Assembly (NCBI GenBank): GCA_010015585.1
Contig: ML975169.1
From: Eremomyces bilateralis CBS 781.70
Lineage: Eukaryota
DNA length: 20,000 nucleotides
Reading direction: 5' to 3' (one strand)
Numbering within the stretch: the first letter of the stretch is position 1; each line of letters starts with the position of its first letter. Below are positions 1 to 20,000 of this stretch, one piece after another. The position numbers and the translations under genes are program-made. Under the pieces are notes generated by a model, which saw only the letters and a program-made list of their open reading frames with translations, made no database searches and was not told the origin of the DNA.

Positions 1-722
1 GAAGGCAAGTTGTCAAGAAGACACGGCAGCCTTGCATTAGCTCTTCGTGGGGTGGAAGTAGGTTCCAGATATCGGTGGCAGAGTAGATCTCCACTTTCCG
101 AGCTACAGATGGCGAGAGTAGGTTCTGAACCCTAGTGATGGAGTCACTGTTCGTGCTGTAAGTCCCAAGGTCGCCACGCCAAACTTTCGGTGATGGAATA
201 CCTTGTGAAGGTCATTGGCGCCTCATTCGATCTGAAAAAGGGCTCATCAGCGTTGTCGCCAGACATGAAGAGTACTAACCATACACTGTCGATCCATTGC
301 TTACCATAGACCCCGGTTCTTGAGGACTTGTGCGTTTGATACGAAACTAGCGACGTAAGCCTTTAATAGGAAATAGCATGTCTGTAAATAAAGAATATCT
401 TACCTTTCTATCCACAGTATCACCTCTGACAGCAAGAGCGCTTGTTGTCTGTCATCAGTCTACTACCTTCTTGAAGGTGTACAATACTCACCACGACTTG
501 GTATCTTCTGGCCCTGCTCGACGACATGGAATACAGGGAATGCGGCCTTCATGCTGCACACATTTCATCCGCAGACGACGGCATCTGTATGGAATGAGTA
601 ATGATCGTTAGAGTATGGGGACAAGGTAAGAACCTCCTACAGGCAACCGCCGACCTCTTTGGGCGCGGCATCTCCATTTCCTGGGACGGGGTGAGCTGAC
701 TGTTACCAGTTGGACGGTCCAT
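1..722 (-). CDS. Zn(II)2Cys6 (C6 zinc cluster) fungal transcription factor, 5' part (continues beyond left edge)
   Basis: Hand splicing: exons 722-634, 584-492, 440-404, 346-280, then 231 (or 201)-1. Introns are 48-57 nt GT..AG (78 nt with the alternative acceptor). Spliced product MDRPTGN...KRSAVA-CRRCRRLRMKCVQHEGRIPCIPCRRAGPEDTKSC-ALAVRGDTVDRKFRIKR gives C-x2-C-x6-C-x8-C-x2-C-x10-C. The last exon reads ...DIWNLLPPHEELMQGCRVFLTTCL, like the start of a C6-factor middle homology region. Confidence 0.85.
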
Positions 723-870
723 GTGTGCTTGTATCAATGGAACGTTTGCCTTGTGCTACAAAGAGGACTGTGAATATGTGGACTGAACTCGGAAGTCGTT
801 CGAAGTTTGGCAGCCCCGGACCGGTGCCTGCACTCAACACCACTACTAGAGATTGGACTTTTGCAAGACC

Positions 871-1119
871 TGTCGCAAGATGCCCCTGTTGGTTTCTACT
901 GCCCTAACATCCCTTTCACTGCCTATTACCCCTAGGCTAAGCCTATTTCGGACTGCTTAGTCTCTTCCCATGTATTTAGTTATCTTCAACTGTTTGGCCA
1001 GCTAGATCTCCTTTTGGGAGAGACAATGGGAATCGTCAAGACCAACTTGCGTTGTGACTCTGCAGCAACTGAGCTTAAGCAGCGAACGTGGTTAATCATC
1101 ACCCACGCGAAATGCGACA
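871..1119. mobile_element. Solo LTR (249 bp) of an LTR retrotransposon, probably Ty3/Gypsy type
   Basis: Starts TGTCGCA and ends TGCGACA (7-bp inverted termini, TG...CA). Flanked by a perfect 5-bp target-site duplication AGACC (866-870 and 1120-1124). Near-identical copy at 12154-12405. Confidence 0.93.
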
Positions 1120-1433
1120 AGACCTCCCTCAATACACTCTCTATGTCAGTATTCTAGGCCTTATCTGACTCGACACTATTTAACACTCCACCGTGAGCGG
1201 GTCAGAGTTGTGTGGGCCTATGGTAGCATGGTTTAGATAGTGGGTCTTTGTCAACCTGGTTGGCTATGATAGGCCATTACCATATTAGCACCCTTCTTAT
1301 CTCCTCCCTCCTAGGGTAGGGAACCCATCAACAATAACAATCTGGGGAGAATTATGGACACCCTACTACGTAGTACTCCGTACAGCTGGTTCTTTGCTAG
1401 ATGCTGGTATTCTGGCCCTACAACCTCCAGTGC

Positions 1434-3193
1434 CTACGCTGATCCTTGTCCCAGCGCCGGAAGTCCCATCGCCGCCAGCTTGGTGTTCACCTCATCTAGA
1501 TGGTCCATGAAATGGCCTTGGAGATTGTCCCAGAACTCGCCTTCATACCCGGGGATTTCTGTGATAATTCAAGTCAGAGGGTTTGTGGCCAAGTAATTGA
1601 ATTGAGGGATTTTGGCTTACGCTTGATGGTCGGGTTCCTCTCCAAGGCAAACTTGGTCAGACTAAAGTGGTTGTTTAGGTGGAACATGAAGCCTATTCAC
1701 AAAAGTTAACATTGGCATCCGTGTACCATTCGTAGAGACAACGAATCACTCACTTAAAGCATCCTTGCCGGCGACCTCATGTTCCAACTGCTTCGTCGTC
1801 GCTTCTTTCCACGCCCCGTAGGCATCCCCATGTGGCATGTACGAATTCTCGCAGCTCAGACAGCCCTCCTGCACGTCACGCACAGACCCGTGGTACTCGC
1901 CATAGATCATGCCGAGCATCTCGGTCGACATGTTGCGATGGTAGTAGGGCGGCCGGTACGTGTCGAGCGCCGTGATATGCTTGGCCGTGTACACGGCGAA
2001 TTCTGACAGCGCCACCTTGGGCGTCTTGGACTTGGCGATGAGGACGGTGTAGATGGTCGGGTCGCACTGCTCCTTCATCGCGCAGGCGAGCGGCACGAAC
2101 TTCTCCATGGCGTACTTGAAGGGCACGTAGCTGCCGTGCCATGCCACCACGTCAAAGGGTGTGTGGTTCTGCTTGTACGCGAAGAGCTGGCCCGCGAGTT
2201 TGTATGTGACTATCAACGGCATTAGTTTTCAGATTGGGATACTTCGGGTGCAGATTTCTTACTCTCCCACTTGGACTGGTCCATGTCAAATGAAGCTACG
2301 GGGTACTCGAAGTCGCGAGGATGCGCCAGGCCATTAGAGCCGATTACACCGAGGTCGGGAAGCTCGAAATGGGAGCCAAACACCTCGTGCACATATCCTC
2401 TCGAGGGACCGTCAGGTAGCGACACCTTCCACCGAAGTCCAGCCTGGATGACACACAGCTCACCCGGCCTGACCATAAGCCTACCTAGCTCAGTCTGGAT
2501 TTCGAGTCGGCCGACCTGCGGCAAGATCAAGAAGTCGCCGTCGTTATTGCAGAACGCCTTCTTCTCCATCGAAGCGTTGCACGAGTACAGGTGCATTGCC
2601 AAGCCCTCTTTTAGCGTCGGATCGCCCCAGCCGCCTATCGTCTTGAGTCCGTGGATGAAAGTCACCTGGTCCTCCTCCTCGGGGTACTCTAGGGGACCCC
2701 ATTCGTATGTGAGAGGGGTAAACTGGACGTTCGGGTTCTGCGGGGAGAAGCATGCTTCAAGCTGGGGCTGGTCAGCCAAGATGCTCTCGCGGGAAGTGAG
2801 GGCGTATTGGACTTAAATCGGGGCTTGCTGGCATGGGTCGGGGCCGCGCGTGTGCAACGGCGGGCCGTATGCGGTACATCCAGACATGTTGGAGTGTGTC
2901 GCGGTACGATGCAAATGGAGTCCCGTTAAGCTGTTCTGAGTATAGGTCATATGGGCATCGCTGCGGCACGTTCCGTCCAGGCTCTGGAAGGGCATCTGGT
3001 CTTTCATGGCGTAAGTCAAATCCGGTTCTGCGAATGGTTCTTCAACTCACACAGCTTCTGAGGAGAAGTAGTTACCAAAGCCGAGCTGGTATCTGTACGG
3101 GTCATTCTCTTTCGGCGGAGTTGTTCGCGACCCAGCGGCAGATGCACCGAAGGTCTTGGGTACCGATGGCGTCAAGATGGAGGCGTCACCCAT
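1434..3193 (-). CDS. hmgA: Homogentisate 1,2-dioxygenase-like ring-cleavage dioxygenase (divergent HmgA/HGD paralog), ~492 aa
   Basis: Exons 3193-3051, 3000-2817, 2761-2263, 2209-1754, 1692-1621 and 1558-1434 join in frame (1479 nt). HGD motifs: YQLGFGNYFSSEA, PQRCPYDLYSEQLNGTPF, WMYRIRPAVAH, NNDGDFLILPQ, FELPDLGVIGSNGLAHPRDF, PFDVVAWHG, RPPYYHRN, MPHG. Fe ligands His/Glu/His are retained. The intron 2 donor is non-canonical (TTAAGT). Confidence 0.93.
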
Positions 3194-3788
3194 TTTGGCT
3201 ATGACACAAAGCTCAACAAGCAAGAATCAGAAAGAAGACTGCTGCTCAAAAGATGTCTTGAATTTGTGCGTGTCAAACCCCTCAAATCTAGCTTTTATCT
3301 GATCAAAATCCAAGCACGTGGCGGCCGCGACAGAAAGGTAGCTTGTCCTGCGCTCACTTACATGACAATTGTCACCATGTGTTGATTGATGGTTTATGCC
3401 CGCTCGTATCCTGCCGGCCGGCCGGCCGGCCCCATCGGCTTGGACGGGCCCAATGCTCTGATTCTGTCCTATCTACAACGTAATAATACACGCAGCAGCG
3501 GCAAGCAACTCCCCTATCAGACTCCACTCTGCTCTGGCGGCCCGGACCGGGACGTGCACGCCGATAGACCGAGAGGCGGCGAGATGATGGGCCTCAATGG
3601 TCCCTACATGTCGATTTCATGTCGACCTAGCCCCGAGATCACGGATAATCGGAGGAATCTGAAGGAGCGAGTAGCGAATCAATGTTATCATATCTCTAAG
3701 TTCGCGGCTCTATAGCATCTACTTTCTGTCTCACTTCCGAGATGCCTCCTCACAAACACTTTAACTGCACAATTAGCGGTTCGACACC
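3194..3788. promoter_or_regulatory. Bidirectional promoter between HGD-like gene and P450, with CGG-rich elements
   Basis: 595 bp between two divergent ATGs. Contains CACGTG (3315-3320), palindrome TGACAATTGTCA (3363-3374), palindromic GCCGGCCGGCCGGCCGGC (3413-3430), CCCGGACCGGG (3541-3551) and CCG-N6-CGG-N5-CGG (3633-3652). Confidence 0.55.
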
Positions 3789-5765
3789 ATGGCTATTACT
3801 TTGAGTAACGATCAACTTCCCGCCTTTGCTCAATCGCCTATACGAGTGGGTGCAATACTCCTCGTGCTAGGTGTTGTTCTTTACCAGATCCTAAAGAGGT
3901 CTTTCAAGAGATACCCATGTCCCCTACCGCCGTCACCACCGGCAGAGCCGCTCTTGGGCCATTTCCGAACATTGCCCCCCGAGAATGCGCACCTCAAGCA
4001 CATGGAATATGCCAAACGATTCAGTGGGTGACATTTGGAAACATTTATCATACGGCGGCTAAGACCAACCCAGATTCGGACATTGTTTACTTCAATGTTT
4101 TGGGCAACCACACCATTGTCTTGAATAGCCAGAAGGTTGCCAATGAAATCCTCGACAAGCGAGGCGCCAACTATCAGGACCGGCCTGGCTTCGTCCTCTT
4201 TGATGTCATGGGATGGGGTCTCACCCTGACCTTTATGCCGTATGGCCCGCGCTTCAAGCTTCACCGCTCGGCGCTGCAGCATGGCTTCACCAAGACGGCT
4301 ATCGTCAATTATCGGCCCATCCAAGAAGACGAGGCGAGACAGGCCATAGCCCGGATTCTGAAGCGACCCACGGAGTGGGATTTCTCTCTACGGAGGTAAT
4401 CAAAGCCCATATTATGGCAACCGGCACGGAGTAATAACACTGTCTAGGTTCGCATCTGCCATCGTCTTGCGCATCGGGTTTGGCGTCACTGTGCGGTCTG
4501 ACGATGACCCGTACATCAAGATTGCCATCGACGCAAACATGGCGACGGCAAAGGGTGGAAACCCGGGAGCTGCCCTCGTTGACTACATGCCCCCGTGTAA
4601 GCAGGTCACGGCGAAGCCGCCCCAGTCGATCAGCACCTCTGACTAGAACGTCGCAGTCCGCTTCATTCCCGAGTTTCTCAATTTCTCGGGCACTCTACAG
4701 CACGCCCGAAAATGGCGATGGGCCATCAAAAACCTCCATGATATCCCCTTTGCAGCTATTAAGAAGGAGTTTGTGAGTTGGTCGCGAGATGCACACAGAA
4801 GAGCTGGTTTGACCCAAGGTCTAGGACGAGGGAACTGCGAACCCATCATTTGCTTACTCACTCCTGAGCAAATACACGCAAAATGAGGAGAAGGGAATCC
4901 CCAATCAGCTTGAAATGAAGGACATCCAAGGAGCTTCCGGATCCGTGTTCATCGCTGGATCAAACACCGTAAGTACACGGTCCATACATTTAGCAACGTG
5001 TGAACTAATCGACGCCCAGACTTTGGCCACGACAACCGTTGCCCTTCTCAACATCATGCGAAACCCTGAGGTATTCATGAAGGCGAGGGCGGAACTCGAC
5101 CGCGTGGTTGGTGAAGACCGACTCCCAAGCCTGGCCGACCGCCCCAACCTGAGGTATCTTGACTATGTGGTTGAAGAGACCACTCGATGGCGGCCGCTAT
5201 CACCTATCGGTATCCCGCATAAGTCCCTGAAAGATGACACCTACAATGGGATGTTCATCCCGGCAGGGTAGGTGAACAGCCGATGGTGTGGTGGTGATGA
5301 GTCCCCGACTGACGCTTGCTATGACAGAACATTCGTCTACTACAACACGTACGCCATGAGCCGCGACGAGAATGTTTACAAGAACCCTGAAATCTTCAAC
5401 CCTGATAGATACACGCCAAAGGAAGAGGGCGGCGATGGGGAGCCCTTCCTCGTCGGTCCATTCGGATTCGGCCGCAGGTAAGACAACATCGACCGCGCCA
5501 ATACGGTTTTCTCCTTACTAACATCAGCATTAGGATCTGTGTTGGACGGCATCTCGCCCAGGCGTCCGTATGGATCGCTGTTGCAACTATGATTGCAACG
5601 ACGGACATCTCGAAGCCTGTAAGTCCAGACGGAAGGCCGATTGATCAGCCGATCGTGTTTAGCACCGGGTTGTCGAGCCATCCTGGAAAGTTTGATGTCA
5701 ATTTCCAGCCGAGGTCTGAGAAAGCTACTAGGCTGCTTGCTCAGGCTGTCGGTGATGCCCAATGA
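3789..5765 (+). CDS. Cytochrome P450 monooxygenase (resembles the OrdA/O-methylsterigmatocystin oxidoreductase-like group), ~531 aa
   Basis: Exons 3789-4023, 4074-4395, 4448-4596, 4657-4772, 4825-4968, 5020-5267, 5328-5477 and 5534-5765, all GT-AG and in frame (1596 nt). N-terminal TM anchor, Pro hinge PLPPSPP, I-helix AGSNTT, ExxR (EETTR), PDRY and heme motif FGFGRRICVG. Confidence 0.95.
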
Positions 5766-6111
5766 GCTCATGATTTGGTGATGTTGATGCAGGGTAGGGA
5801 ATGAGAAGTGAATCGGCGCTGGAGAAGTCAGAGAATATTCCTGCGACCGCCGGCCTTGGGTACATGCTCATATATTGGCAGAAAAGGTGTAAATAAACAG
5901 TTGAAGTCAGTCGATACGAATAGAACGTGAAGTGCAAGCTCTCCCATCGATGTCTGCCATTGAACCCAACTGTGGAAGTGACTTGCGCAAATTCATAACT
6001 GTCTTCTGCATCCCAACTAGGCATGCCTGCAGCATAAGAGCAGCGAGGCTTTAAGCCCGATTCGTAGTCGCCTATTGAAACCCGGATGGCCTGCATATGC
6101 TAATGTCTCAG

Positions 6112-6850
6112 AGCTTCAAGTCGCTCAGGGGACGATCAATACGGTCTCCCGCTCGTGTGTCTGAATTTCCCACCACACACCCCTCCGCTTCTCCGAGACG
6201 GGGGGCTCTCGGCCCTCCGACTCTTAACCCTCAATCTCGACGCGGACTTCAGTGACGAAGAGTTCAAATGGTCTTCTTTGCCCTCCCGTCGGTCCGTTGA
6301 GCAATTGCTCCCACGTTTCCTTGAGCTCATCCCTCAGCTGGAAAGGCTGGGATTCAGCTGTCCAGATCTGATCCTAGACTCGTACTGGTTACTAGAAGAG
6401 CTCGCCACAGTCCATTTTCCCTGTTTGAAAGCGATCAACTTGTGGCGTCTAGTTATGGGGCCGGAGACTTTATTATCGATGCTACGCACCTACCGGGCCA
6501 CGCTGCGCGAACTTGATCTATATGAGTGTTCCCTCGGCGATCCAGATGCTGATAACGACGATGGTGGTGGTGATGGTGACGGTGACGGTGATGAAGAAGC
6601 TGACCCAAACATATGGCGGTCCCTGTTACACGGTCTGTTAGACCTCAAATTGGAATGTCTTTCCGTTTCCCGACCGTTGCTGCAGATGGTGGGCGACGTT
6701 CGATTCCGGTCGGTTAAAGGGGAGGAGTATCAAGAGCTGGCAGGGGAAACCCCCGAAGCCGTCCAAGAGGAGATCAACCGGGTCGACGCCATTCTTGTAG
6801 GTCGGAGGGCGGGGGAAGGACCATGGTCACCGCAACCTGATGAGAGCTAG
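6112..6850 (+). CDS. Leucine-rich (F-box/RNI-like C-terminal) hypothetical protein, terminal exon; 5' part not identified
   Basis: Open frame of ~245 codons with LxxLxL repeats (LSALRLLTLNL, PQLERLGF, FPCLKAINL, ATLRELDL, LKLECLSV). Acceptor-like GCTAAT...CAG ends at 6111. No convincing upstream exon or ATG found. Confidence 0.5.
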
Positions 6851-7254: not shown

Positions 7255-8097
7255 CTACAGCATAAGCATGGCGGTTCCAATCACTCCAAAAAGCACGATT
7301 GGTAGAAAGAAAGAATCCCTCCAAAGATATGCCCCAGTTATCGCCGCGCTTCCTGTCGCAGGAGGGCCGTCCGGTGTCCCCGTCGTGACTACGGATTGCG
7401 TCGCTGAAGTCGTTTCACCTGTTGTAGAGATTCCAACTTTTGTAGGCGTAGGTAGCTGCGCTGATATGCTACTTATACGAACATCGTCCAGTGCAACGGC
7501 ACACGGGTTGGCGGGGCCACCCACCGCGTCGCCAAAATGCGGGCAGCCTGTCAAGTTGGCCTCGATTCCAAAGACACCAGCCGCGATCGGACACTCGCCA
7601 CCCCCTTGGATAGCTGGAGGAATGCCAGAGCCCGTAGTAGTAAAGTTAGAGCGGCCCTCACCAAAGACATAGCCTGCGCTAATTCTGAATCGATTGCCTT
7701 CATCCGTGCAGTTGGTGGCCAGTTTCAGCTCCCAGGCCAGCGTCCAAGTGGTAACAGGGTCTCGCCAGTTTCCGTCGATCCTAGTGGAGTTAACGATGAT
7801 AAACGGGTCCGATGGCGGCGGGCTGGGGTTTGCTAGAGAAGGCCCCCCCGCCCCCGCCCTGCCGAAGTCCTTCAGGCCAATGTCGTTGTGTAGCTCCCAG
7901 CTAAATGTGAACCCAAAGTCCCAAGCCACTTTTGCATTTTGAATCGCGAATATAAGCGGGAACGGCGACTGATAGAGGTATGTTGTGTTCGGTCGCGGAA
8001 GCACTATGTCAACTTCGATATCGGTAGGGAAAGTGACCATGTCTTGAGCTAGTGCGACGGTCACTAGTAGTGCCGCAGAAAAGAATAAAGACTTCAT
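7255..8097 (-). CDS. Secreted, probably GPI-anchored hypothetical protein (DUF7136-like), 280 aa
   Basis: Intronless ORF from ATG 8097. Signal peptide MKSLFFSAALLVTVALA, motif EVDIVLPRPNTTY...PLIFAIQN recalled from a fungal family, four Cys, Ser/Thr-rich stalk and hydrophobic C-terminal tail. Confidence 0.8.
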   Translation of the reverse strand: MKSLFFSAALLVTVALAQDMVTFPTDIEVDIVLPRPNTTYLYQSPFPLIFAIQNAKVAWDFGFTFSWELHNDIGLKDFGRAGAGGPSLANPSPPPSDPFIIVNSTRIDGNWRDPVTTWTLAWELKLATNCTDEGNRFRISAGYVFGEGRSNFTTTGSGIPPAIQGGGECPIAAGVFGIEANLTGCPHFGDAVGGPANPCAVALDDVRISSISAQLPTPTKVGISTTGETTSATQSVVTTGTPDGPPATGSAAITGAYLWRDSFFLPIVLFGVIGTAMLML

Positions 8098-9318
8098 GTT
8101 TGATTTGGGTTGAATTCCAGGGATCACGACCGAGGGGAAATGTAATGTATCGAGTCAAACTGCACGGCTTGGGATAGATATCTGAGGAGGGGGCGATAAG
8201 TGGCCTTATGGCCTGGCGATAAGCAAAGTTATTATATTTTCCCTGTGCAACAATTGGCAGTCCGTCCTTTACATACTTGGTTGATGGCAGCGGTGGTCCG
8301 CACTGCTAATTACTGGGGTAACACTTACGAGGCACCCTCGATTCTTACGGTGGAAGCCGAGAGGTCAGGAGTAGCGTAATATAATTTGCTAGTCCGTGCA
8401 TCATATCGTGCTAGGATAATTGGATCGTAAGTTCGTAACAAATAGCCAGGGGAAATTGGGAATGAGGGCAAGTCGGATCCTCCGGCTCGCTCCATATCAT
8501 GTCCTTCGTAGCATAAGCTACCGGATTGAAACTTTCAAGTTGGTCCAAGTAGGTTCATTGTCGCGTGGTGCGTAGGGTTGTGTACTCGCGTCTCGTGTGC
8601 GCAAAGGATGGCACTTGGGTAACTAAGCTAACTGCCTCGTAGCACATGTATGCTAGAAGGCGGAGCGGTGTTTGGAAAGCTTTGATTTGCTAACTATTAT
8701 CAAGCGTGAACGAAAGAAAGAAGAGGTAAAAAGAGGGAGATAATAATAGACTAGGAGATAATACTTAACGGTAACTGTGGTGGTAGGAAGTTATGGTAAT
8801 GCTGGCTGGTGATTCGTTTCTCCACACAGAGAAATCGTGATATTGCTGGGCTGGGACCTTCGTTCCTTCACATATTACGGAACTCCACATCACCCAAGAG
8901 TGTTATTAGTCCGGCAAGGCAAGAGTTAGTGTCAGTCTGTCGGAGGTTAACAAGGTAAACTACTTCTGACCGAATATAAGCGTCTCACGTCTCACTACCT
9001 CAGTTAGGTAACCTATTGCTTCCGTGACTGATTGACATGCCTAAACAATTAACAACATATGAGCCTATGAAATGGTCTCACATCCAGCATGTGCATTCAC
9101 TTATATGGAATAATGATGCACATATTCCCCTCCGCCTGCGAAGAAGCATCACATCGTATCCGGCATCTAGTCAGAGCCTGACCAATGCTTCGGAAATTAC
9201 TCAAAGGCTTGATCATCACTGTTACGATGAACCGTTCGCTACTCGATGACTGAGACCACAACTCGGTAGAGGTGCTATTTTTGAATTTGAACCAAATACC
9301 AGAAACACGCCACTACTA

Positions 9319-10146
9319 CTAACCAGCCCAAGCATCCGTATACGGCCCATACAGAGTATGCATGGCAGCCTCTATCCACGCCGCCCTCCCACTCTCCGCT
9401 TTGAAGTATTCATGCAGATACAACCATTCACTCCTCCCTGCCCTCCGACTTTTATCGAAAGCGAACATTCCGAGAACCACTCCCAAGTCTCGATCCACCA
9501 CCCATCGCCGCGTCGGGATCGGGTACCGGAACAGCGACAGGCCCTGCTCGCAGTGCTGCGTCATGGTCACTCCGTTCTCGTTGCGCACACATTGTGCCGC
9601 CGCGAGCACTCCGCTCCCGTCTCCGGACTGGATGCCCTCGGCATAGCTGTTCGCGATCGCGATGAGCTGCACCCGTGTCAAGGCCGGTGCCGGGTACGGC
9701 GTGCTCCACACGGCGGGGGCTTCCGCAGGGAATCGCTCCGGTGCGAACAGCATGTGGCTTCCTGGTAGGGCATTGACGATCTCGATCTCATCGATCGCGC
9801 CCGTGGCGTTGTCCAGCGCCATGCGGATGCTAAGGATGGCGCGCTGGCGACCCGCTTCGGTCGGGACGCGCATCGACGCGATCTGACAGGCGTCGACGTC
9901 CACAGCGGAGATCTGCCAGGGAACGGCGAAGTTGGTCAGGTTGGCATATGACGTTTGAGCCAAGGACACGACCTGATTGTTCTGTGTGATTTTGGCTGAT
10001 GACGAGAGGGGCGTGGAGAGCGTGTTCCGCTGAGCGACAGCGGAATTGAAGAAGTCAGTGACGGCGGATTCAAGCTGGGGCCGGGTGCAGGCGCAAAGAG
10101 CGGAGGGGAGAACGGAAAAGGGGAGGGAGGCGAGATAAGGCCTCAT
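9319..10146 (-). CDS. Secreted hypothetical protein (possibly tandem NTF2/SnoaL-like domains), 275 aa
   Basis: Intronless, GC-rich ORF from ATG 10146. Signal peptide ends ...SALCA-CTR. Two halves open with similar helices (CTRPQLESAVTDFF / LTRVQLIAIANSYA), and the second contains CVRNENG. Confidence 0.75.
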   Translation of the reverse strand: MRPYLASLPFSVLPSALCACTRPQLESAVTDFFNSAVAQRNTLSTPLSSSAKITQNNQVVSLAQTSYANLTNFAVPWQISAVDVDACQIASMRVPTEAGRQRAILSIRMALDNATGAIDEIEIVNALPGSHMLFAPERFPAEAPAVWSTPYPAPALTRVQLIAIANSYAEGIQSGDGSGVLAAAQCVRNENGVTMTQHCEQGLSLFRYPIPTRRWVVDRDLGVVLGMFAFDKSRRAGRSEWLYLHEYFKAESGRAAWIEAAMHTLYGPYTDAWAG

Positions 10147-10752
10147 TCTGAAGGTATGATGTTGTCCCACGTCTTAGTGTTCACTTCTTTTGAGTCGCTC
10201 GACGGTGCGACTGGTCAAGTAGAGACAGTAATCGAAGGAGCCATCATTTGGTAGATTCACTCATGTTATTATATAGATCCCTCTAAGTCCGATCCGAACT
10301 TCTCGCTCTGTTGCAAATTATTGCGGTCTATGTCATGTAGACATGCATTTATGGGCAAATCGGGTCGTGTTTCGCGGAATACTTGCGCAATATGCGTGGT
10401 CAGGGTTTAATCAATCCGTAGCAAATTCCAAGAAATTATAGCAACGTAAATGGCCTGCTTGCAAGCATCCTCTGACTTTGAACATTTCTAGTGACATCCT
10501 AGAGATAATAGTTAGCAAAACTTATAACTAGTTATAGACTCACGCTTCAACCGGTATTTATTAGTTCGGGTTAGAGAGTGATTAACTAACCTTAGTTGCA
10601 AAACTTTAACTCGCATATGGATATGGTAATGTTTCACGGTGCCGGAATGCACTACGATGGAATTAGATTTTCTTCGTGTCCCTATTCGCATTACTTATAC
10701 CTGCGGCAAAGCTTTCGCTGCTTAATTAACTACCATCCTTTCTTCGCTAACT

Positions 10753-10874
10753 ATGTCGCTCACCACTAACTACTATAACGAGCCCAGCAAGTTCGCCATG
10801 TCACTCACCACAACTACCATAACAACAAGCCCGACGAGTTCGCCTTGTTGCTCACCACAACTACCACAATAATC
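10753..10874 (+). repeat. Degenerate tandem repeat, ~45-47 bp x 2.6
   Basis: Units start at 10753 (atgtcgctcaccactaactactataac...agttcgcc), 10798 (atgtcactcaccacaactaccataac...agttcgcc) and 10845 (ttgttgctcaccacaactaccacaataatc). Confidence 0.8.
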
Positions 10875-11271
10875 GGACGCACAGCGGAGACACCACTACC
10901 ACTCGCCCTGACGACACCATTTGTACAGGCACCAAACTCTGCTGACATCTTCTCCATTAGAAGCATTATCTCGACTTTCGGGTGGTCCCGCAATTACTCA
11001 ACCACCACCACCGTCGTTTGTAGCCTTAGGCTCCTATATATTATACCTTGGTCTGCGACAGAAATCTTGTGTGATGACTAAGTAATAAACCTCCGGTTTC
11101 CGACACATTGGTACCGTACGGCAGGGGTACTTTTGCAACAGCATAGAGTGCTTAAGTATAGACAGCCGGTCCGTCTCGCAGTCTTTCGTTCATTGAAGAG
11201 CACTTCGAAATCTTCCGAAATTTCTCCCAGGCCTCTAGCGATATCTCCACTGACGCAGGATAAGTGAAACG

Positions 11272-11774
11272 ATGCCGGTATATCACATCTACTGCTCGCA
11301 AATCCAATCCGGGCCGTCAAAGTCACAATACGCCAAAAGGCTTATCAAACTCCATGCAGACACTTTCCACACCGATCCTGATGCCGTCAGGGTTATGTTC
11401 AAGACCACACTTCGTGGTGATGTCGTCAAATCATATGTTAGTTTGTCCGTCCAACCTCTTGTGGCCTCCTAGCTAATGGGCTCATCTAGGGCGGCTACGG
11501 CTTCTCGCCTGCGAAGGGACCGTTTGGTGCAGCGATTGTCGGGGATCATATGATTGCCCATATTGACTTCCGCGGCCCTCTAGAGGTATTGCAGGAATAC
11601 TTTAGGAAGGTGACTGCATCGTACGGGAATAATCCTCCGCTTTCCTCGATTTACTGGCAGAAATTGGAAGCAGAATTTGAATTTGGGGGTTTCATTTCTC
11701 ATCCCAAAACGAGCGAAGCGGCAAGCAGCAGTGATGCTCCTCCGCCGCATTATACTGAACAGCTGAAGGAGTAA
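11272..11774 (+). CDS. Small protein with N-terminal Met-Pro, tautomerase superfamily (cis-CaaD-like) candidate, 149 aa
   Basis: Exon 11272-11436, 53-nt intron (GTTAGT...GCTAAT...TAG, 11437-11489) and exon 11490-11774 join two ORF-track fragments in frame. The N-terminus MPVYHIY...AKRLIKLHADTFHTDPDAVRVMF fits a Pro1 beta-alpha-beta pattern. Confidence 0.65.
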
Positions 11775-12153
11775 TTCAAGAGTGTTCTATTTTAAACCTT
11801 CTCGTTCTACCAATCGCTCAAATACTCAAGACAACTGAGTCTCTACGGTCTACAGTTAATACCGAATACGCTGTTTCTGCTCTCTGGCTTCCCTCTGGTA
11901 CCTGGTCCGATTTAGGGTATTCAGATTTTGTTGATTGGTTTAGACGTGTCAATCAATCACGGAAGCAATAGGTTCTCCGGCAGAGGGAGTGAGATGCATG
12001 TATTGTGTAAGCTGTGGGATACATCGCAAGGTAGATATACCCGAGCTTATGTAAGATAAATAACAAGGAAATAAATCTAGCGCGATGACTAAGCAATAAC
12101 CTCTGATTTCCAACAGATTTACACCCTTGGTAACATGCCTGCTACAATAATAC

Positions 12154-12405
12154 TGTCGCAAGATGCCCCTGTTGGTTTCTACTGCCCTAACTTTTCTTTC
12201 ACTGCCCATTACCCCTAGGCTAGGCCTATTTCGGACAGCTTAGTGTTTTCCCTTGTATTTAACTAGTTATCTTCAACTGTTTTGCTAGCTACATCTCCTT
12301 TTTGGGGAACAATGGGAATCGTCAAGACCAACTTGCGTTATGACTCTACAGCAACTGAGCTAAAGCAGCCAACGTGCTTAATCATCACCCACGCGAAATG
12401 CGACA
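12154..12405. mobile_element. Solo LTR (252 bp), same family as 871-1119
   Basis: TGTCGCA...TGCGACA termini and a 5-bp TSD AATAC (12149-12153 and 12406-12410). Roughly 90% identical to the copy at 871 by eye, same orientation. Confidence 0.93.
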
Positions 12406-12943
12406 AATACTTCCTAGTGGAGCCTGCAGGACGGTACAGTCCAAACACTCCTGGTGATTAACAAAGTACAACAACTTGCCAACATTCAGTTGAAGCATTG
12501 GCTGGAAGAAAGATCTAATCAAGTAGAGAAACTTCCTTTTAACTGCCCCATGGCGTAAAATGATAACCCGACTGTACATCTCATCAGAATATTGATTCTT
12601 GACCTTTGTTAAGGTTGAAATGGCTCGATGGGAAGCCAGTTGGAATGAACTTTTCGATCCGACTGAAGCTTCAATGGAAGATATGGATTATGATGTGTTA
12701 TGGCATTGTGGAATATCGTCAAACTAACTCGATCTGGCCAAGGAGAAGGCTTAGGCTTAGGCTTGTGATACTCATTCCAGATATGGCGTTCAGCTGAAAT
12801 AGGTTTCCCATTCCATCATCCGCCTTATCAAGCTGACTTCTTTCTCCAGTGTCTAAGCTGCTGCAATCCAGAGGCAGCACAGGGTCAGAAGCCATACTCG
12901 ACTGCCAAAATACCTCAATTTCTTTTCGCTCCGCTGCTCGTCA

Positions 12944-13469
12944 TTGCATCCTTGGCCTTATCACCATACGGTACTTCTTCTCGGACCTGCGAGCGCTACT
13001 CATTGGAGGGACAATACTAAACGAGTCTGTCCAGGTGAGTATTCAAAAAGCAATAGAAGAAGCACGTCGTGGTGATCGTGTTTATGTTGAGACTGATACA
13101 TACGCTGAGTAGTTGAGTATCGAAACTGATGGACTTGAACTCATCGAATCGGGCACTACTCTCATCCCTCCTGTAGAATCCACCCCAAATACGTGTTCCG
13201 GTCTTGGAAGGAATAACACAGAGGCTGGGATCTGTGTGACTGGAGCCAACGACGACCTCGATCTGTTCGAGACAGGACATCGCAAAGTGTTATCTGCTGG
13301 CCGCTCCGTGAAAGGCGTTTCAACCACCGGCTTCAAAGTTTGCGGTTTCTTTGGAGAAATCATTGCCGTGGTTGGAGCTCGCAATACTGAAGTGAAGACT
13401 AATACACTCATCGATGGCGGAGAGTAAGGGCTTCTCACTGTTGGTTCGAAGGGGCAACGTGGTTACTTC
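12944..13469 (+). pseudogene. Pseudogene of a secreted right-handed beta-helix (pectin-lyase-fold) protein, truncated by an LTR
   Basis: Reads ...VLLLGPASATHWRDNTKRVCPGE (frameshift ~13038) SIQKAIEEARRGDRVYVETDTYAE* (TAG 13110-13112) LSIETDG...NTCSGLG...EAGICVTG...HRKVLSAGRSVKGVSTTGFKV...IAVVGA...LIDGGE* (TAA 13425-13427) GLLTVGSK. SIQxAI...GDxVxV...TYxE is the typical beta-helix N-cap. Confidence 0.75.
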
Positions 13470-13594
13470 TGTCGCAGGATGCCCCTTTTGGTTTCTAGCC
13501 ACCTAACATTCCTTTCACTGCCCTCTAACCCTGGGCTAGTCCTAATTGGGACTCTCAGTCTTCTCCTAATTATGTATTTAAGTTATCTTCATCT
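13470..13594. mobile_element. Truncated, more diverged LTR copy of the same family
   Basis: tgtcgcaggatgccccttttggtttcta...ctttcactgccc...tgtatttaagttatcttca aligns to the first half of the two solo LTRs. The other half and a TSD are not found. Confidence 0.85.
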
Positions 13595-14039
13595 GGCTTA
13601 GGAATATTGCTGATTGATAGCCCAACATCTGTTGGGTCTGGTAATATTGTTAAGAATATTCTGCGTGGGAATGTCTTTGACCTCTATGTCGACTCCGCTA
13701 ACACTAATAATGTTATAAACAATGAATACTCAACGCTGGGACCATTCTGTACTTGAATAGTAATACATAAAAGCAAATCACAAGTCTATGACGCTGTCCT
13801 CCCTTAACTCCATTTTATAACTATAAGGAGTAACCTAATTAAAAAAAGGGCGAACTCTAATATACGGCGGTCGAGAACTGGGGATCAAAGAAACGCGGTT
13901 CATCGTATCAATATGCATAGGACGAAGAATAGTTAGAGATCAAATAATAATACAGTTTGTCCGGTTAAGACACACCACCGGGTTCTTCGTCTGCAAATTG
14001 ACTCAATTCCAATGTTTTCTGCCGGCCACAACAGAGCCT

Positions 14040-15826
14040 TTATAACCTGAAGCTTGATAGCTGTGTAGTGATATATAAAAAGTTAATTGGCCTATACGTG
14101 TCCCATGTAAGGGACGTAGTCGTTGCCGAGAAGTTCATCATCTTCGGGAGAATCAAGGAGTACTGGGGCCAGGAGGTGAGACCGGTGGCGCTGTTGTAAG
14201 AGTTCGGATCTAACGTGTTGATGAAAGAGATGAAGTATTTTCGCATGTTGGATCCTGCCACCGCGTCTGGAACGTCGAAGAAAATTTGGAACAAGTCCGA
14301 CACATGGAAAGTGCCCAAAACAGGCAACCCATACAGGCTGGTGTCGAGATAGGTCCAAGTCTTGACGGTGTAGGAAACACTAGTGAGATATGACCTTCGA
14401 GCCAAATCGAAAAAGAGATCGCCGATGATGGACGCCAGGCGCTTGAATTGGGGATAGATTTGGTTGGCAGAGCCGGTATCATATGGGGACCCATCCTCTG
14501 GTTCATCCGGATATATTGCGGCAAGACCAGCAACCTGGAGGGTCGAGGCAAGAGGAAAGTAACTCTTCAAATAGGAAATGAGTTGCTGCGTTGTTGAAAG
14601 ATCCGTTTGCGGAAGAGAAAATAGTGTTCCTTCATCTTTCACGTCTCCAATGATGAGCGGGACTTTGGCGTAAGCGCCAGATCGGATGGCAGTCTCTGGA
14701 GACACCGGGAAGAAATCGTCACTTGGATCAGGCCTGGGAAGGTAGGAAAGGTTGACACTGCTGGAGTCAACGAAGTTTGGAACCGAAGTTACGGCGCTGA
14801 GGAAGTCATCGTATGACAATCCACGCAGACAAGCCAGGCTGTCCGCAGCATTAGCGCACCCAGCACTTTCGACAACTTGATCGAAAATTGCCTGGGATTT
14901 ATCACTATCCACAGGGAGTGCTGGCCAAACCGAACCGGATTGCTAGCAATAGATAAGCTCAGGATTGGAATATCGACTGAGATTGTAACCTACCATGATA
15001 GCGGCGCGGAAAAGTGGCTTTCCATTGTAGCTAATATCGCCTCCGTTGATGATGGTATGGTCAAGAACTAATTCAACGGCAATTAGCAGAATGCACTGGA
15101 TTTGCAGATAGGAATCGTACCGGACAAAGCTCCTGCGGATTCACCCCATAGTGTGACTTTGGTTGGATCACCACCGAATGCCCCAATGTTATCCTGAACC
15201 CATTGGATCGCAAGCCTTTGGTCACGGAGGCCAAGATTTGCGCTTCCATCGGCCTTCACTTGGCTTCCAGCGAGGAAACCAAATCCACCAAGGCGATAAT
15301 TCATGGCCACGTAAATAACGGGATTATTCATGCTGATGGACTGGTTGACAAAGATCGACCCATCATAAACTTGGGTTGCACCAATTTCAAAACCACCTCC
15401 ATGAATCCAAATTACAACTGGGAGTTCAGCATTATATGAAGTCCCTTCTGGCCTCTGAACATTAATAGTCAAGCAATCTTCACCGGCAACGCTAGAAAGA
15501 TCCGCGAAGATCGGGGTCGAAGTGAGGAGACCCAAAACCTCAAGAGGAAGGTTTTCGGCATGAAGCTGGCCCAGGAACTGAGGGCAGGCTTGGGGAACTC
15601 CAATGGCGTCGATGGTTCCGAATGATGTGGCCAGTGGCTTGGGTGGTTTGAGACGTAATGATCCTGTCGGAGGTTGCGCATACGGAATTCCCATGAAAGA
15701 CTCAACCCCCCCTGAACTTGAGCCAAATACTGTCCCATTGGAGATGGTGACACTGGTTCCAGCTCTCGGGATCAAAGATCCAGCCACAGCAGTAGAGGTA
15801 AGGCAAGCAAGAAGTGTAAGAAACAT
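14040..15826 (-). CDS. Secreted type-B carboxylesterase / lipase (Candida rugosa lipase / sterol esterase-like), ~560 aa
   Basis: Exons 15826-15121, 15067-14994 and 14942-14040 join in frame (1683 nt). Signal peptide, FMGIPYAQPP, EDCLTINV, oxyanion HGGG, nucleophile GESAG, AIMQSGS, catalytic Glu (KDEGT) and His (GTFH). Confidence 0.95.
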
Positions 15827-19637: not shown

Positions 19638-20000
19638 TTGGAATTTAGGGACTTTTCGAGCCAGTTGATGATGAAGATGTTTTGGAAGGGTAATTGACCG
19701 AAGCGGACAGGACAAGATTCGCTAGAACGACCAAGACACCACTTGCTTACTCGGTAATGGTCTTTTAATAATAATAATAAGAATCAATTTAACGTACTAT
19801 CTGGATCCCTTTCGGGTCTATGAGCACGATATTCTATCTGGTCTGCCGCGGGCAAAAGTTTCCCCGTAGCCCTGAGGCTGCGGGTACATAAAATCCCGCC
19901 TCCTCCCTTTAGTAGACTATCTCAAACGTTTATCATCTATCCGTAAGAGTCGGTGTTTCCGCCTACGCGGAGAGCTTATTCTGGCACGTCGTGGAGGAAC

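What the first reader, a model, noticed from the sequence alone, without database searches (positions are those of the whole stretch)
1..5765. Candidate uncharacterised aromatic-catabolism module: Zn2Cys6 regulator + divergent HGD-like dioxygenase + non-PhacA P450
Seen: three adjacent genes, with the dioxygenase and P450 head-to-head across 595 bp and a hidden multi-intron C6 TF next to them. Known: canonical fungal hmgA clusters with hppD/fahA/maiA for Phe/Tyr catabolism, and phenylacetate is funnelled by CYP504 (PhacA/PhacB). None of those partners is in this window, and this P450 looks OrdA-like rather than CYP504-like. Inference: the P450 hydroxylates or O-dealkylates an aromatic (plant, lignin-derived or xenobiotic) to a para-diol that the HGD paralog cleaves, under control of the adjacent TF. 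That would be a pathway distinct from tyrosine catabolism.
Basis: partly seen in the sequence, partly recalled or inferred. Interest (0 to 1): 0.75.

Follow-up and report, generated by a model that had tools for sequence, protein, structure and literature searches.

The report
Conserved fungal P450–ring-cleavage dioxygenase–regulator cassette
Three neighbouring fungal genes (a cytochrome P450, an extra copy of the ring-opening enzyme homogentisate dioxygenase, and a regulator) stay together in many distantly related moulds, which marks them as an unstudied unit for breaking down some aromatic compound.

Summary
The window's exons match proteins annotated in Eremomyces bilateralis CBS 781.70: a 6-exon HGD-family dioxygenase (3193..1434, minus), a 595-bp gap, an 8-exon P450 (3789..5765, plus), and downstream of the dioxygenase a Zn2Cys6 regulator (677..<1, minus). 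The database model of the regulator lacks its zinc-cluster exons. Spliced RNA contigs confirm 4 of 5 dioxygenase introns and all 7 P450 introns.

Dioxygenase and P450 orthologues carry consecutive locus tags or accessions in 16 other named species of three ascomycete classes. One 152-kb metagenome contig holds the whole trio in the same order and orientation. A Xylariomycetidae genome has P450, HGD, one gene, then the regulator.

The dioxygenase lies in a supported subclade, 55-60% identical to other fungal paralogue clades and 37-38% to human-like HGDs. In Exophiala spinifera the published hmgA orthologue is a different gene.

Caveats: 15 species have the P450 without this dioxygenase. The substrate, the CYP family and any second HGD in this genome remain untested.

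Verdict: a real, conserved, uncharacterised catabolic cassette, a new variant of known fungal HGD-centred clusters. The chemistry is inferred only.

The parts
1..677 (-). 5' part of a Zn2Cys6 / Fungal_trans transcription factor. Exons are 677-634 (ATG at 677), 584-492, 440-404, 326-202 and 146-<1, and the gene continues beyond the window. The first three exons carry the six-cysteine zinc cluster. They are absent from the database model P0178, which starts near 305.
   Evidence: Open spliced frame with GT..AG introns. Pfam Zn_clus E=0.031 on exon 2 alone, and Fungal_trans E=9.3e-9 on P0178. P0178 residues 18-66 are identical to window 148-2. The zinc-cluster exon and its intron position are conserved in L001.
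678..1433 (.). Spacer of 756 bp between the dioxygenase stop codon and the regulator start codon. It should hold the dioxygenase 3' UTR and the regulator's promoter.
   Evidence: Coordinates. RNA contig cover in bins 668-2001. No tblastx match to L001.
1434..3193 (-). HGD-family Fe(II) ring-cleavage dioxygenase, 491 aa, 6 exons: 3193-3051, 3000-2813, 2754-2263, 2209-1753, 1691-1621, 1558-1437, stop 1436-1434. The metal triad is His365/Glu371/His401. His299, Tyr363 and the lid residue Tyr380 are kept.
   Evidence: Pfam HgmA_N and HgmA_C. Exact match to P0001. RNA joints at 3001-3050, 2210-2262, 1692-1752 and 1559-1620. Alignment to solved HGDs 9pz4, 1ey2 and 3zds. Motif columns.
3194..3788 (.). 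595-bp divergent intergenic region, the presumed shared promoter of the dioxygenase and the P450. It is rich in CGG/CCG elements, for example a CCGG-repeat run at 3414-3429 and a CGG/CCG group at 3538-3553.
   Evidence: Start codons. CGG/CCG listing, which is descriptive only and was not tested against chance. One RNA contig runs across the region (record 1).
3789..5765 (+). Microsomal-type cytochrome P450, 531 aa, 8 exons: 3789-4023, 4074-4393, 4446-4596, 4657-4772, 4825-4968, 5020-5266, 5327-5475, 5532-5765. Junctions are ambiguous by up to 2 nt. It has an N-terminal hydrophobic anchor, the I-helix motif AGSNTT, the ExxR motif EETTR, and the haem loop FGFGRRICVG.
   Evidence: Pfam p450. Seven GT..AG RNA joints. 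The spliced translation equals P0121. Motif table.

Best explanation
This is a conserved three-gene catabolic cassette for an aromatic compound, separate from the core tyrosine pathway.

Proposed mechanism:
- The ER-anchored P450 oxidises a phenolic or alkoxy-aromatic compound to a para-diol (hydroquinone-type) intermediate. Para-hydroxylation of a 2-substituted phenol is the likeliest reaction, and O-dealkylation is the alternative.
- The neighbouring HGD-family Fe(II) dioxygenase, a dedicated paralogue, opens that ring next to a hydroxyl group.
- The Zn2Cys6 regulator encoded just downstream switches both genes on through their shared 595-bp divergent promoter.
- The open-chain product is finished by enzymes encoded elsewhere.

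What is shown: the gene structures, transcription and splicing, the catalytic residues, conserved adjacency, and the distinct paralogue clade.

What is inferred: the order of the reactions, the para-diol intermediate, the regulator's targets and the substrate. My leading substrate guesses are hydroxyphenylacetate giving a homogentisate-like diol, or a guaiacol-type phenol giving methoxyhydroquinone.
For: Gene models and expression:
- The spliced products equal P0001 and P0121. The introns are seen in spliced contigs of run X1.

Linkage:
- HGD and P450 orthologues have consecutive accessions or locus tags in 16 named species. These are Thozetella, Pleurostoma, Microdochium, Xylariomycetidae FL2044, Podospora conica, five Sporothrix, Exophiala spinifera, E. 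oligosperma, Rhinocladiella similis, Knufia peltigerae, Cladophialophora chaetospira and Meristemomyces frigidus.
- Of 18 named species with a clade HGD, 17 have the P450 next door, counting the window.
- L001 carries P450(-), HGD(+) and regulator(+) in the window's arrangement. Similarity to the window stops exactly at the cassette's edges, window 2-5765.
- In FL2044 the regulator is two accession numbers from the HGD.
- L002 pairs the sister HGD clade with the sister P450 clade.

Paralogue status:
- The HGD sits in a 15-row clade with 99% SH-aLRT support, and in a 16-row clade at 100/99.
- It is 80-86% identical within the clade, 69% to Meristemomyces, 55-60% to other fungal clades, and 37-38% to human-like types.
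- Thozetella, Pleurostoma, FL2044 and E. oligosperma each hold further HGD paralogues.
- The hmgA orthologue of E. spinifera in Table S8 of PMC5358931 is PV08_02623, while the linked P450 is PV08_00233.

Catalytic competence:
- His/Glu/His, His299, Tyr363 and Tyr380 are present in the dioxygenase.
- The haem Cys loop and ExxR are present in the P450.

Precedent:
- HGD-family paralogues cleave methoxyhydroquinone: A. niger MhdA (PMC8336404, passages) and PcMHQD1/2 (review PMC11634970, section 7).
Against: - No experiment or expression contrast ties either enzyme to a substrate. One RNA data set of unknown growth condition shows only that both genes are transcribed.
- 15 named species (14 Hypoxylaceae/Durotheca and Clohesyomyces) have a clade P450 but no clade HGD among the best 120 of 1020 hits. 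The P450 can therefore work without this dioxygenase.
- Podospora aff. communis has the HGD but no P450 among the 57 hits.
- The regulator's linkage rests on 3 loci only. One search, with a 70-aa query, returned 3 proteins.
- No downstream hydrolase or isomerase lies in the window.
- The dioxygenase keeps the residues that bind homogentisate in canonical enzymes, so it may simply cleave homogentisate.
- Whether E. bilateralis has any other HGD could not be checked, because no genome is held.
- A 2014 survey found hmgA orthologues in only one Dothideomycete (PMC3914699, passages).
Confidence: 0.55

Rival explanations
1. Homogentisate feeder branch. The P450 is a functional analogue of PhacA/PhacB from a different CYP family. 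It hydroxylates 2- or 3-hydroxyphenylacetate (or phenylacetate, or a tyrosol-type compound) to homogentisate. The dioxygenase is a true homogentisate 1,2-dioxygenase, and its product joins the ordinary maleyl/fumarylacetoacetate steps encoded elsewhere. The pathway would then merge with tyrosine catabolism and would not be distinct from it.
For: - The dioxygenase keeps His299, Tyr363, lid Tyr380 and the metal triad.
- P450-plus-HGD neighbourhoods for phenylacetate/styrene catabolism are described in black yeasts (PMC5358931 section 22; PMC5844311 passages).
- A bacterial P450 for 2-hydroxyphenylacetate in a homogentisate pathway is reported (PMC8449657, listing and abstract only).
- Several carriers are black yeasts and wood or dung fungi.
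Against: - The protein is only 37-38% identical to human-like HGD representatives. The lid motif Y-[DE]-[AG]-K of those rows is replaced by Y-H-G-S.
- Meristemomyces, the deepest clade member, lacks the lid Tyr.
- No FAH or isomerase lies nearby in the window or in L001.
- The black-yeast PHA-HGD cluster involves the hmgA orthologue, a different gene.
- No CYP504-named or Aspergillus/Penicillium/Trichoderma protein is among the P450 hits, although CYP504 is reported in all seven Trichoderma species examined (PMC5985579 passages).
Confidence: 0.25
2. Housekeeping hmgA with a bystander neighbour. The dioxygenase is this fungus's only homogentisate dioxygenase for Phe/Tyr catabolism. The P450 and the regulator are neighbours without a shared pathway.
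For: - No second E. bilateralis HGD appears among the 120 listed hits.
- Dothideomycetes were reported mostly to lack hmgA orthologues of the Aspergillus type (PMC3914699), so another clade may have taken over that role.
Against: - Adjacency of the same two orthologues in 16 other named species of three classes, and in L001, is not expected for bystanders.
- Other carriers hold additional HGD paralogues, and E. spinifera has a separate hmgA orthologue.
- Only 120 of 1020 hits were listed, so absence from the list is weak evidence.
Confidence: 0.1
3. Tailoring pair of a secondary-metabolite pathway. The P450 and the dioxygenase remodel an aromatic natural product and do not feed central metabolism.
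For: - Fungal P450s of this broad group are often biosynthetic, and relatives are auto-named after the sesquiterpene oxidase COX2.
- The distribution is patchy and the gene tree conflicts with taxonomy, as for many biosynthetic clusters.
Against: - No PKS, NRPS, terpene synthase or prenyltransferase domain occurs in the window or in the 21.8 kb of L001.
- The only block shared between the window and L001 is the trio.
- L001's extra neighbours are an FMO-like monooxygenase, isochorismatase-family hydrolases, an alpha/beta hydrolase and an MFS transporter, which look catabolic.
Confidence: 0.05

Closest known systems
Aspergillus niger mhdA-omeA (methoxyhydroquinone 1,2-dioxygenase of the HGD family with a neighbouring esterase; PMC8336404, passages read)
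   Same: An HGD-family paralogue, separate from hmgA, dedicated to a non-tyrosine aromatic, with a functionally linked neighbouring gene. It belongs to the same fungal-specific expansion of HGD-like enzymes.
   Different: Its partner is a carboxylesterase, not a P450, and its substrate is made by a flavoprotein (VhyA). No labelled MhdA sequence was available, so clade membership could not be tested. The best solved relative (9pz4, identity of organism unknown to me) has PPFYH and no lid Tyr, unlike the window protein. No row of my alignment carries that signature.
Phanerochaete chrysosporium PcMHQD1/PcMHQD2 (review PMC11634970, section 7 read)
   Same: HGD-like enzymes that cleave substituted hydroquinones. 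The metal triad is conserved. The lid Tyr decides activity on homogentisate.
   Different: They are basidiomycete enzymes from recent duplications and no P450 partner is reported. The window protein keeps the lid Tyr, as PcMHQD1 does and PcMHQD2 does not.
Tyrosine-degradation cluster hppD-hmgX-hmgA-fahA-maiA-hmgR of Aspergillus (PMC3914699, passages read)
   Same: An HGD-family dioxygenase clustered with a Zn2Cys6-type pathway regulator.
   Different: No hppD, hmgX, fahA or maiA lies here. The HGD clade differs. A P450 is the conserved partner.
Black-yeast PHA (CYP504)-HGD-fumarylacetoacetase-MFS cluster (PMC5358931 section 22 and Table S8; PMC5844311 passages)
   Same: A P450 gene directly beside an HGD-family gene in an aromatic-catabolic neighbourhood. 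Some of the same genera (Exophiala, Rhinocladiella) carry it.
   Different: That cluster holds the hmgA orthologue (R. mackenziei Z518_05388 beside CYP504 Z518_05387; E. spinifera hmgA is PV08_02623). The cassette here is a second locus (E. spinifera P450 PV08_00233), with a P450 that shows no sign of being CYP504 and with no FAH. Figure S7 of that paper was not visible to me.
PhacA/PhacB (CYP504A1/B1) phenylacetate and 3-hydroxyphenylacetate hydroxylases of Aspergillus nidulans (as described in PMC2657799 passages; otherwise recalled)
   Same: Microsomal P450s that make the substrate of an HGD by ring hydroxylation. This is the working model for the P450 here.
   Different: They are not clustered with hmgA in Aspergillus (recalled). 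No Aspergillus or Penicillium protein is among the 57 relatives found. The P450 clade here has Asn in place of the I-helix acid.

Membership tests
Homogentisate 1,2-dioxygenase superfamily (Pfam HgmA_N + HgmA_C) | Both Pfam domains above the gathering score | tested here: met
   HgmA_N at 203.3, 62.8 and 41.1 bits and HgmA_C at 82.3 bits on the exon ORFs. The solved HGDs 9pz4, 1ey2 and 3zds match at E=3e-137, 3e-103 and 3e-83.
Homogentisate 1,2-dioxygenase superfamily (Pfam HgmA_N + HgmA_C) | 2-His-1-Glu iron triad plus the catalytic His and the active-site Tyr. The roles of these residues are from review PMC11634970 and from recall of the human and P. putida structures. | tested here: met
   His365, Glu371, His401, His299, Tyr363 and Tyr380 align with the corresponding residues of 1ey2.
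Canonical hmgA (tyrosine-pathway homogentisate dioxygenase) | Groups with human-like or canonical HGDs in a tree, with high identity to them | tested here: not met
   It is 37-38% identical to the human-like representatives P0208, P0212 and P0213, and a 99% branch separates it from them. No labelled A. nidulans HmgA was available, so the label 'canonical' for those rows rests on their lid motif and length.
Canonical hmgA (tyrosine-pathway homogentisate dioxygenase) | Neighbourhood with hppD, fahA, maiA | tested here: not met
   No such Pfam domain in 77 ORFs of at least 65 aa right of the P450. The left side of the window ends inside the regulator.
Canonical hmgA (tyrosine-pathway homogentisate dioxygenase) | It is the only HGD in the genome | not testable with these tools
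   No genome is held for this window. Only 120 of 1020 hits were listed.
MhdA-type methoxyhydroquinone 1,2-dioxygenase | Same clade as A. niger MhdA or PcMHQD; activity on methoxyhydroquinone | not testable with these tools
   No labelled MhdA or PcMHQD sequence could be brought in, and activity needs an assay.
MhdA-type methoxyhydroquinone 1,2-dioxygenase | Adjacent omeA-type esterase | tested here: not met
   The only esterase in the window (COesterase, 14040-15880) lies 8.3 kb from the cassette (11 kb from the dioxygenase) and starts with a signal-peptide-like N-terminus.
Cytochrome P450 superfamily | Pfam p450, FxxGxRxCxG haem loop, ExxR | tested here: met
   Pfam at 85.7, 39.3 and 23.2 bits. 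FGFGRRICVG and EETTR are present. 69 solved P450s match at E<=1e-20.
CYP504 (PhacA/PhacB) | More than 40% identity to a named CYP504 member (nomenclature rule, recalled) | not testable with these tools
   No labelled CYP504 sequence was available. Indirect evidence against: none of the 57 relatives is named phenylacetate hydroxylase or comes from Aspergillus, Penicillium or Trichoderma.
Zn2Cys6 (Gal4-type) fungal transcription factor | Six-cysteine binuclear cluster at the N-terminus | tested here: inconclusive
   The pattern C-x2-C-x6-C-x8-C-x2-C-x10-C appears in the spliced frame and is conserved in L001. Pfam on the single 30-aa exon gives 14.8 bits against a cut-off of 21. The joined protein could not be given to Pfam.
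Zn2Cys6 (Gal4-type) fungal transcription factor | Fungal_trans middle homology domain | tested here: met
   P0178 scores 35.2 bits, P0180 52.4 bits and P0179 44.1 bits.
Fungal metabolic gene cluster | The same orthologues are adjacent across distant species while the flanks differ | tested here: met
   16 named species by consecutive tags. L001 shares only the trio with the window.

The most novel reading that the evidence does not exclude
The P450 clade, marked by an invariant Asn in place of the I-helix acid, together with its private HGD paralogue, forms a previously unknown fungal route. A phenol derived from lignin or plant material is para-hydroxylated by a P450 and the resulting hydroquinone is cleaved directly. 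This would name the first fungal P450 dedicated to intracellular catabolism of lignin-type monoaromatics. The three-gene cassette has moved horizontally between Sordariomycetes, Chaetothyriales and Eremomyces.
Probability: 0.2. Interest if true: 0.7.

Novelty: new variant of a known kind. Interest (0 to 1): 0.45.

Why it matters
Recent reviews and surveys describe two gaps in fungal catabolism of lignin-derived aromatics.
- No specific P450 acting on these compounds has been identified (PMC11634970, P450 section passage).
- Only three HGD-type ring-cleaving enzymes have been characterised, while Pezizomycotina carry several anciently diverged clades (PMC12420386, passages).

A P450 that is locked next to one such clade in at least 17 species, with its own regulator, gives a concrete and testable enzyme pair for one of these unknown branches. 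It also gives a cloning target for making or removing hydroquinone-type intermediates.

For annotation:
- These genes should not be counted as the tyrosine-pathway hmgA.
- The regulator's zinc-finger exons are missing from the public gene models.

Tried and rejected
- **Whole-genome look-up for a second HGD, FAH, MAI or HPPD.** No genome is held for this window, so this is unresolved.
- **Earlier findings of this scan.** Four look-ups by place, sequence and words gave nothing relevant.
- **RNA runs.** No RNA holder is listed on record. The one run found (X1, 'RNA?' by guess) proved to hold spliced contigs. Its depths cannot rank genes, so I claim no co-expression. Joints over the regulator were not among the 15 shown.
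- **CYP family assignment.** The ESM Atlas gave only generic P450 clusters, mostly from Basidiomycota. The PDB gave CYP1, CYP2 and CYP17 as the best matches. Neither separates CYP504 from CYP64, so 'OrdA-like' stays untested.
- **PDB entry 9pz4.** It is the best structural relative, but a full-text search for '9PZ4' found no paper on it (10 unrelated hits). Its organism and substrate are unknown to me.
- **Searches for prior description of this pair.**
  - The locus tags and accessions PV08_00232, PV08_00233, XP_016239874, XP_016239875, XP_046008899 and XP_046008900 gave 0 papers.
  - 'ElHDO' gave nothing relevant.
  - Two broader term searches listed only the CYP504-hmgA black-yeast cluster and the bacterial CYP116B case.
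- **Paper not held.** The Jeoung et al. structure paper (PMC3732965) is not held, so residue roles are taken from the review and from recall.
- **Shared promoter motifs.** Both the window's and L001's divergent regions hold many CGG/CCG elements. With two GC-rich sequences this is not evidence, so I dropped it.
- **The esterase at 14040-15880 as an omeA analogue.** Rejected, because it is distant, looks secreted, and is not conserved in L001.

Full report
**What is in the sequence**

The window is fungal. Stop-to-stop ORFs in 1-5765 fall into three genes.

*The dioxygenase.*
- The minus-strand ORFs between 1746 and 3041 hit Pfam HgmA_N and HgmA_C.
- A search with the largest exon returned a 491-aa protein, P0001, annotated as putative homogentisate 1,2-dioxygenase of Eremomyces bilateralis CBS 781.70.
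- Its sequence is reproduced exactly by six window exons: 3193-3051, 3000-2813, 2754-2263, 2209-1753, 1691-1621 and 1558-1437, with the stop at 1436-1434.

*The P450.*
- The plus-strand ORFs between 3809 and 5481 hit Pfam p450.
- Splicing from ATG 3789 at seven junctions gives exactly the 531-aa protein P0121 of the same organism, ending with the stop at 5763-5765.

*The regulator.*
- On the minus strand to the left of the dioxygenase, five exons (677-634, 584-492, 440-404, 326-202, 146-<1) give one open frame with GT..AG introns of 49, 51, 77 and 55 nt.
- The frame carries six cysteines spaced C-x2-C-x6-C-x8-C-x2-C-x10-C.
- The last exon is identical to residues 18-66 of P0178, a 656-aa protein on the same 396,544-bp contig as P0001 and P0121. 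P0178 has a Fungal_trans domain.
- P0178 and its two relatives P0179 and P0180 all start downstream of the zinc cluster, so 'hidden' is a fair word for those exons.
- On its own the 30-aa second exon scores below Pfam's cut-off (Zn_clus 14.8 bits, E=0.031).
- The same exon, with an intron at the same place between the first two cysteines, is present in a relative that shares about 50-58% identity in the regulator.

**Transcription**

One public run (coded X1, labelled RNA only by guess) holds contigs that skip canonical introns on the window, so it contains spliced transcripts.
- It shows 4 of the 5 dioxygenase introns: 3001-3050, 2210-2262, 1692-1752 and 1559-1620.
- It shows all 7 P450 introns.
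- The contig shown does not splice the second dioxygenase intron (2755-2812). This is either intron retention or an assembly choice. Nine further joints were not displayed.
- One 4,915-nt contig runs through both genes and the gap between them. The tool warns that this does not show a single transcript.
- Depth cannot rank genes here. I claim only that both genes are transcribed and spliced.

**Is the linkage conserved?**

*Evidence from database records.*
- The hits for the dioxygenase exon (1020 at E<=0.001 among 1623 candidates, 120 listed) and for a P450 exon (57 among 891 candidates) come from the same contigs in the same species.
- Cluster look-ups then gave accession numbers and locus tags.
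- The two genes are consecutive in 16 named species:
  - Thozetella sp. PMI_491
  - Pleurostoma richardsiae
  - Microdochium trichocladiopsis
  - Xylariomycetidae sp. FL2044
  - Podospora conica
  - Sporothrix stenoceras, S. eucalyptigena, S. curviconia, S. bragantina and S. thermara
  - Exophiala spinifera and E. oligosperma
  - Rhinocladiella similis
  - Knufia peltigerae
  - Cladophialophora chaetospira
  - Meristemomyces frigidus
- Counting the window, 17 of 18 named species with a dioxygenase of this clade have the P450 next door. For Podospora aff. communis PSN243 no P450 appeared among the 57 hits.
- In FL2044 the order of accessions is P450, dioxygenase, one other gene, regulator.

*Evidence at DNA level.*
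- A scan of metagenome contigs found three loci (145 pattern matches, 3 confirmed).
- L001, from a 151,828-bp contig, has P450 (9382-7669, minus), dioxygenase (10001-11776, plus) and regulator (about 12405-15149, plus). This is the window's order and orientation.
- tblastx similarity between the window and L001 covers window 2-5765 and nothing else in the 20 kb.
- L002 has a dioxygenase and a P450 in tandem. Both are nearest to the sister clades, mostly Leotiomycete proteins, so the pairing may be older than the clade itself.
- L003 (4.6 kb, with an Agaricales-like dioxygenase) has no P450.

*Evidence against strict coupling.*
- The P450 clade (28 rows, 97% SH-aLRT) also holds 14 Hypoxylaceae/Durotheca species and Clohesyomyces aquaticus.
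- No dioxygenase of this clade from those 15 species appears among the 120 listed hits.

*The regulator.*
- Its linkage rests on three loci: the window, L001 and FL2044.
- The search that could have found more used a 70-aa query and returned only three proteins.

**What kind of HGD is it?**

- In a tree of 68 family members, the window protein sits in a 15-row clade (99% SH-aLRT) that contains every P450-linked dioxygenase, with Meristemomyces deepest. A careful tree of 25 rows gives 100/99 for the 16-row clade.
- Identity is as follows:

| Compared with | Identity |
|---|---|
| Clade members in Sordariomycetes and Chaetothyriales | 80-86% |
| Meristemomyces | 69% |
| Other fungal paralogue clades | 55-60% |
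| Representatives with the human-like lid motif (P0208 of E. oligosperma; P0212; a diatom protein, P0213) | 37-38% |

- Thozetella, Pleurostoma, FL2044 and E. oligosperma each have further family members in other clades.
- Table S8 of Teixeira et al. (PMC5358931, supplement searched) lists PV08_02623 as the E. spinifera orthologue of A. fumigatus hmgA. The P450 of the present cassette is PV08_00233, and its neighbour is the clade dioxygenase.
- So in at least that species the cassette's dioxygenase is an extra copy.
- For E. bilateralis itself I could not check, because no genome is held. Greene et al. found hmgA orthologues in only one Dothideomycete in 2014 (PMC3914699, passages). This is the main open point.

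**Catalytic residues**

- Aligned to human HGD (1ey2), the window protein keeps the iron ligands (His365, Glu371, His401), His299, Tyr363 and the lid residue Tyr380. The numbering of the human residues and their roles are recalled, supported in part by the review read.
- The lid motif that reads Y-[DE]-[AG]-K in the human-like rows is Y-H-G-S here. The residue after the last iron ligand is Asp in the clade, against Glu, Val or Pro elsewhere.
- 15 of 16 clade rows keep the lid Tyr. Meristemomyces does not.
- The best solved relative, 9pz4 (E=3e-137), has PPFYH and no lid Tyr. I could find no paper on it.
- These features do not decide between homogentisate and another hydroquinone. PcMHQD1 keeps the Tyr and prefers methoxyhydroquinone, while PcMHQD2 has Phe and does not use homogentisate (review PMC11634970).

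**The P450**

- It has an N-terminal hydrophobic segment and a proline-rich hinge, so it looks like a microsomal class II enzyme. That classification is an inference.
- Full-length identity to the orthologues in other classes is 76-81%.
- All clade rows carry AGSNTT in the I-helix. Asn replaces the usual acid in 34 of the 49 aligned rows, plus one more distant row. The Botrytis/Monilinia and Colletotrichum relatives have AGSDTT or AGADTT (14 rows with Asp). What this means for catalysis is unknown.
- None of the 57 relatives is named phenylacetate hydroxylase or comes from Aspergillus, Penicillium or Trichoderma. CYP504 is reported in all seven Trichoderma species examined (PMC5985579). Some relatives are auto-named COX2.
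- This speaks against CYP504, but it is not a family assignment. I had no labelled CYP504 or CYP64 sequence to compare.

**Surroundings**

- To the right of the P450, 77 ORFs of at least 65 aa gave only DUF7136 (7255-8154), a two-exon-plus COesterase (14040-15880) and weak WD40 hits (18351-19637). There is no FAH, GST or HPPD.
- L001's flanks hold an FMO-like monooxygenase, two isochorismatase-family genes, an Abhydrolase_3 gene and an MFS transporter. None of these is shared with the window.

**How it most likely works**

- Shown: two intact, transcribed enzymes whose genes stay together across three classes; a regulator that travels with them in at least three loci; and a dioxygenase lineage separate from the tyrosine-pathway gene.
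- Inferred: the P450 makes a para-diol, the dioxygenase opens it, and the regulator drives both genes from the 595-bp divergent promoter.
- This follows the logic of PhacA/PhacB feeding HmgA, and of MhdA cleaving methoxyhydroquinone (PMC8336404).
- I put 0.55 on this general model.
- I put 0.25 on the special case in which the diol is homogentisate itself and the pathway merges with tyrosine catabolism.
- I put 0.10 on a housekeeping hmgA with bystander neighbours.
- I put 0.05 on a biosynthetic role.

**Comparison with what is known**

- A P450 beside an HGD is not new in itself. In Herpotrichiellaceae a CYP504 'PHA' gene lies next to the hmgA orthologue, with a fumarylacetoacetase and an MFS gene (PMC5358931 section 22; PMC5844311; Table S8). 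That is a different locus from the one described here.
- HGD paralogues with new substrates are also known (MhdA, PcMHQD1/2).
- What I found no description of is this particular clade pair with its regulator. Searches by accession or locus tag and by topic found none.
- A 2025 survey says fungal HGD-type enzymes are 'insufficiently characterized' and sit in several ancient Pezizomycotina clades. It also says fungal O-demethylases are still unknown and may be P450s (PMC12420386).
- I therefore file the finding as a new variant of a known kind.

**Verdict**

- Observation: confirmed.
- Interpretation: partly supported. Its linkage and paralogue claims pass, while its chemistry is untested.
- Interest: 0.45. 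This is a solid and testable lead for people who work on fungal aromatic catabolism, but it is not a surprise in kind.

Noticed in passing
window 3789-5765 (I-helix codons in exon 4825-4968): The P450 and all its clade relatives have Asn where P450s normally carry the I-helix acid (AGSNTT). This holds for 34 of 49 aligned rows. The next relatives (Botrytis/Monilinia, Colletotrichum) have Asp. The substitution marks the clade and its meaning for catalysis is unknown.
   Followed up: partly
window 1434-3193 and relatives P0002-P0014, P0181, P0186-P0189, P0377-P0380: The dioxygenase tree conflicts with taxonomy. Eremomyces (Dothideomycetes) and the Chaetothyriales sequences nest among Sordariomycete sequences at 80-86% identity, while the other Dothideomycete (Meristemomyces) is the deepest branch at 69%. 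An AU test rejects a clade of the two Dothideomycetes (p=0.0008), but I named that group after seeing the tree. Horizontal transfer of the cassette, or old paralogy with loss, could both explain this.
   Followed up: partly
window 1-677; proteins P0178, P0179, P0180: All three database models of the regulator start downstream of the zinc cluster. The Zn2Cys6 exons are short, are split by an intron between Cys1 and Cys2, and seem to be missed by gene callers.
   Followed up: yes
window 2755-2812: The second intron of the dioxygenase is not spliced in the RNA contig that was shown (record 1 is continuous over 2263-3000). Read through, it would stop the frame shortly after the exon. This is possible intron retention, but nine joints were not displayed.
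   Followed up: no
window 6104-6850: A 248-aa plus-strand ORF without any Pfam hit contains a Gly-Asp repeat (the tool flagged 6547-6603 as a repeat). An RNA joint with CT..AC ends at 6420-6488 overlaps it, which is an intron of a minus-strand transcript. Which strand is the gene is unclear.
   Followed up: no
P450 relatives P0124, P0127, P0129, P0132, P0134-P0136, P0138-P0142, P0144, P0145, P0157: 14 Hypoxylaceae/Durotheca species and Clohesyomyces have an orthologous P450 (73-79% identity). No dioxygenase of the linked clade from these species is among the 120 listed hits. What the P450 sits next to there was not visible.
   Followed up: partly
L001:5624-7471 and L001:15217-20802: In the metagenome relative the trio is flanked by an FMO-like monooxygenase, two isochorismatase-family genes, an Abhydrolase_3 gene and an MFS transporter. 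This may be a larger catabolic cluster in that organism. None of these genes is shared with the window.
   Followed up: partly
window 7255-8154 and 14040-15880: A DUF7136 protein with a signal-peptide-like start and a Ser/Thr-rich tail lies at 7255-8154. A COesterase-family gene with a signal-peptide-like start lies at 14040-15880, with RNA-supported introns at 14943-14993 and 15068-15120. They look like ordinary secreted proteins unrelated to the cassette.
   Followed up: no
window 19344-20000: RNA contig depth jumps to about 2187 in the last bin, against 1-140 elsewhere. There are also loose ends, including an AAT-type repeat at 19774. This may be a very highly expressed gene or a repeat at the window's right edge.
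   Followed up: no
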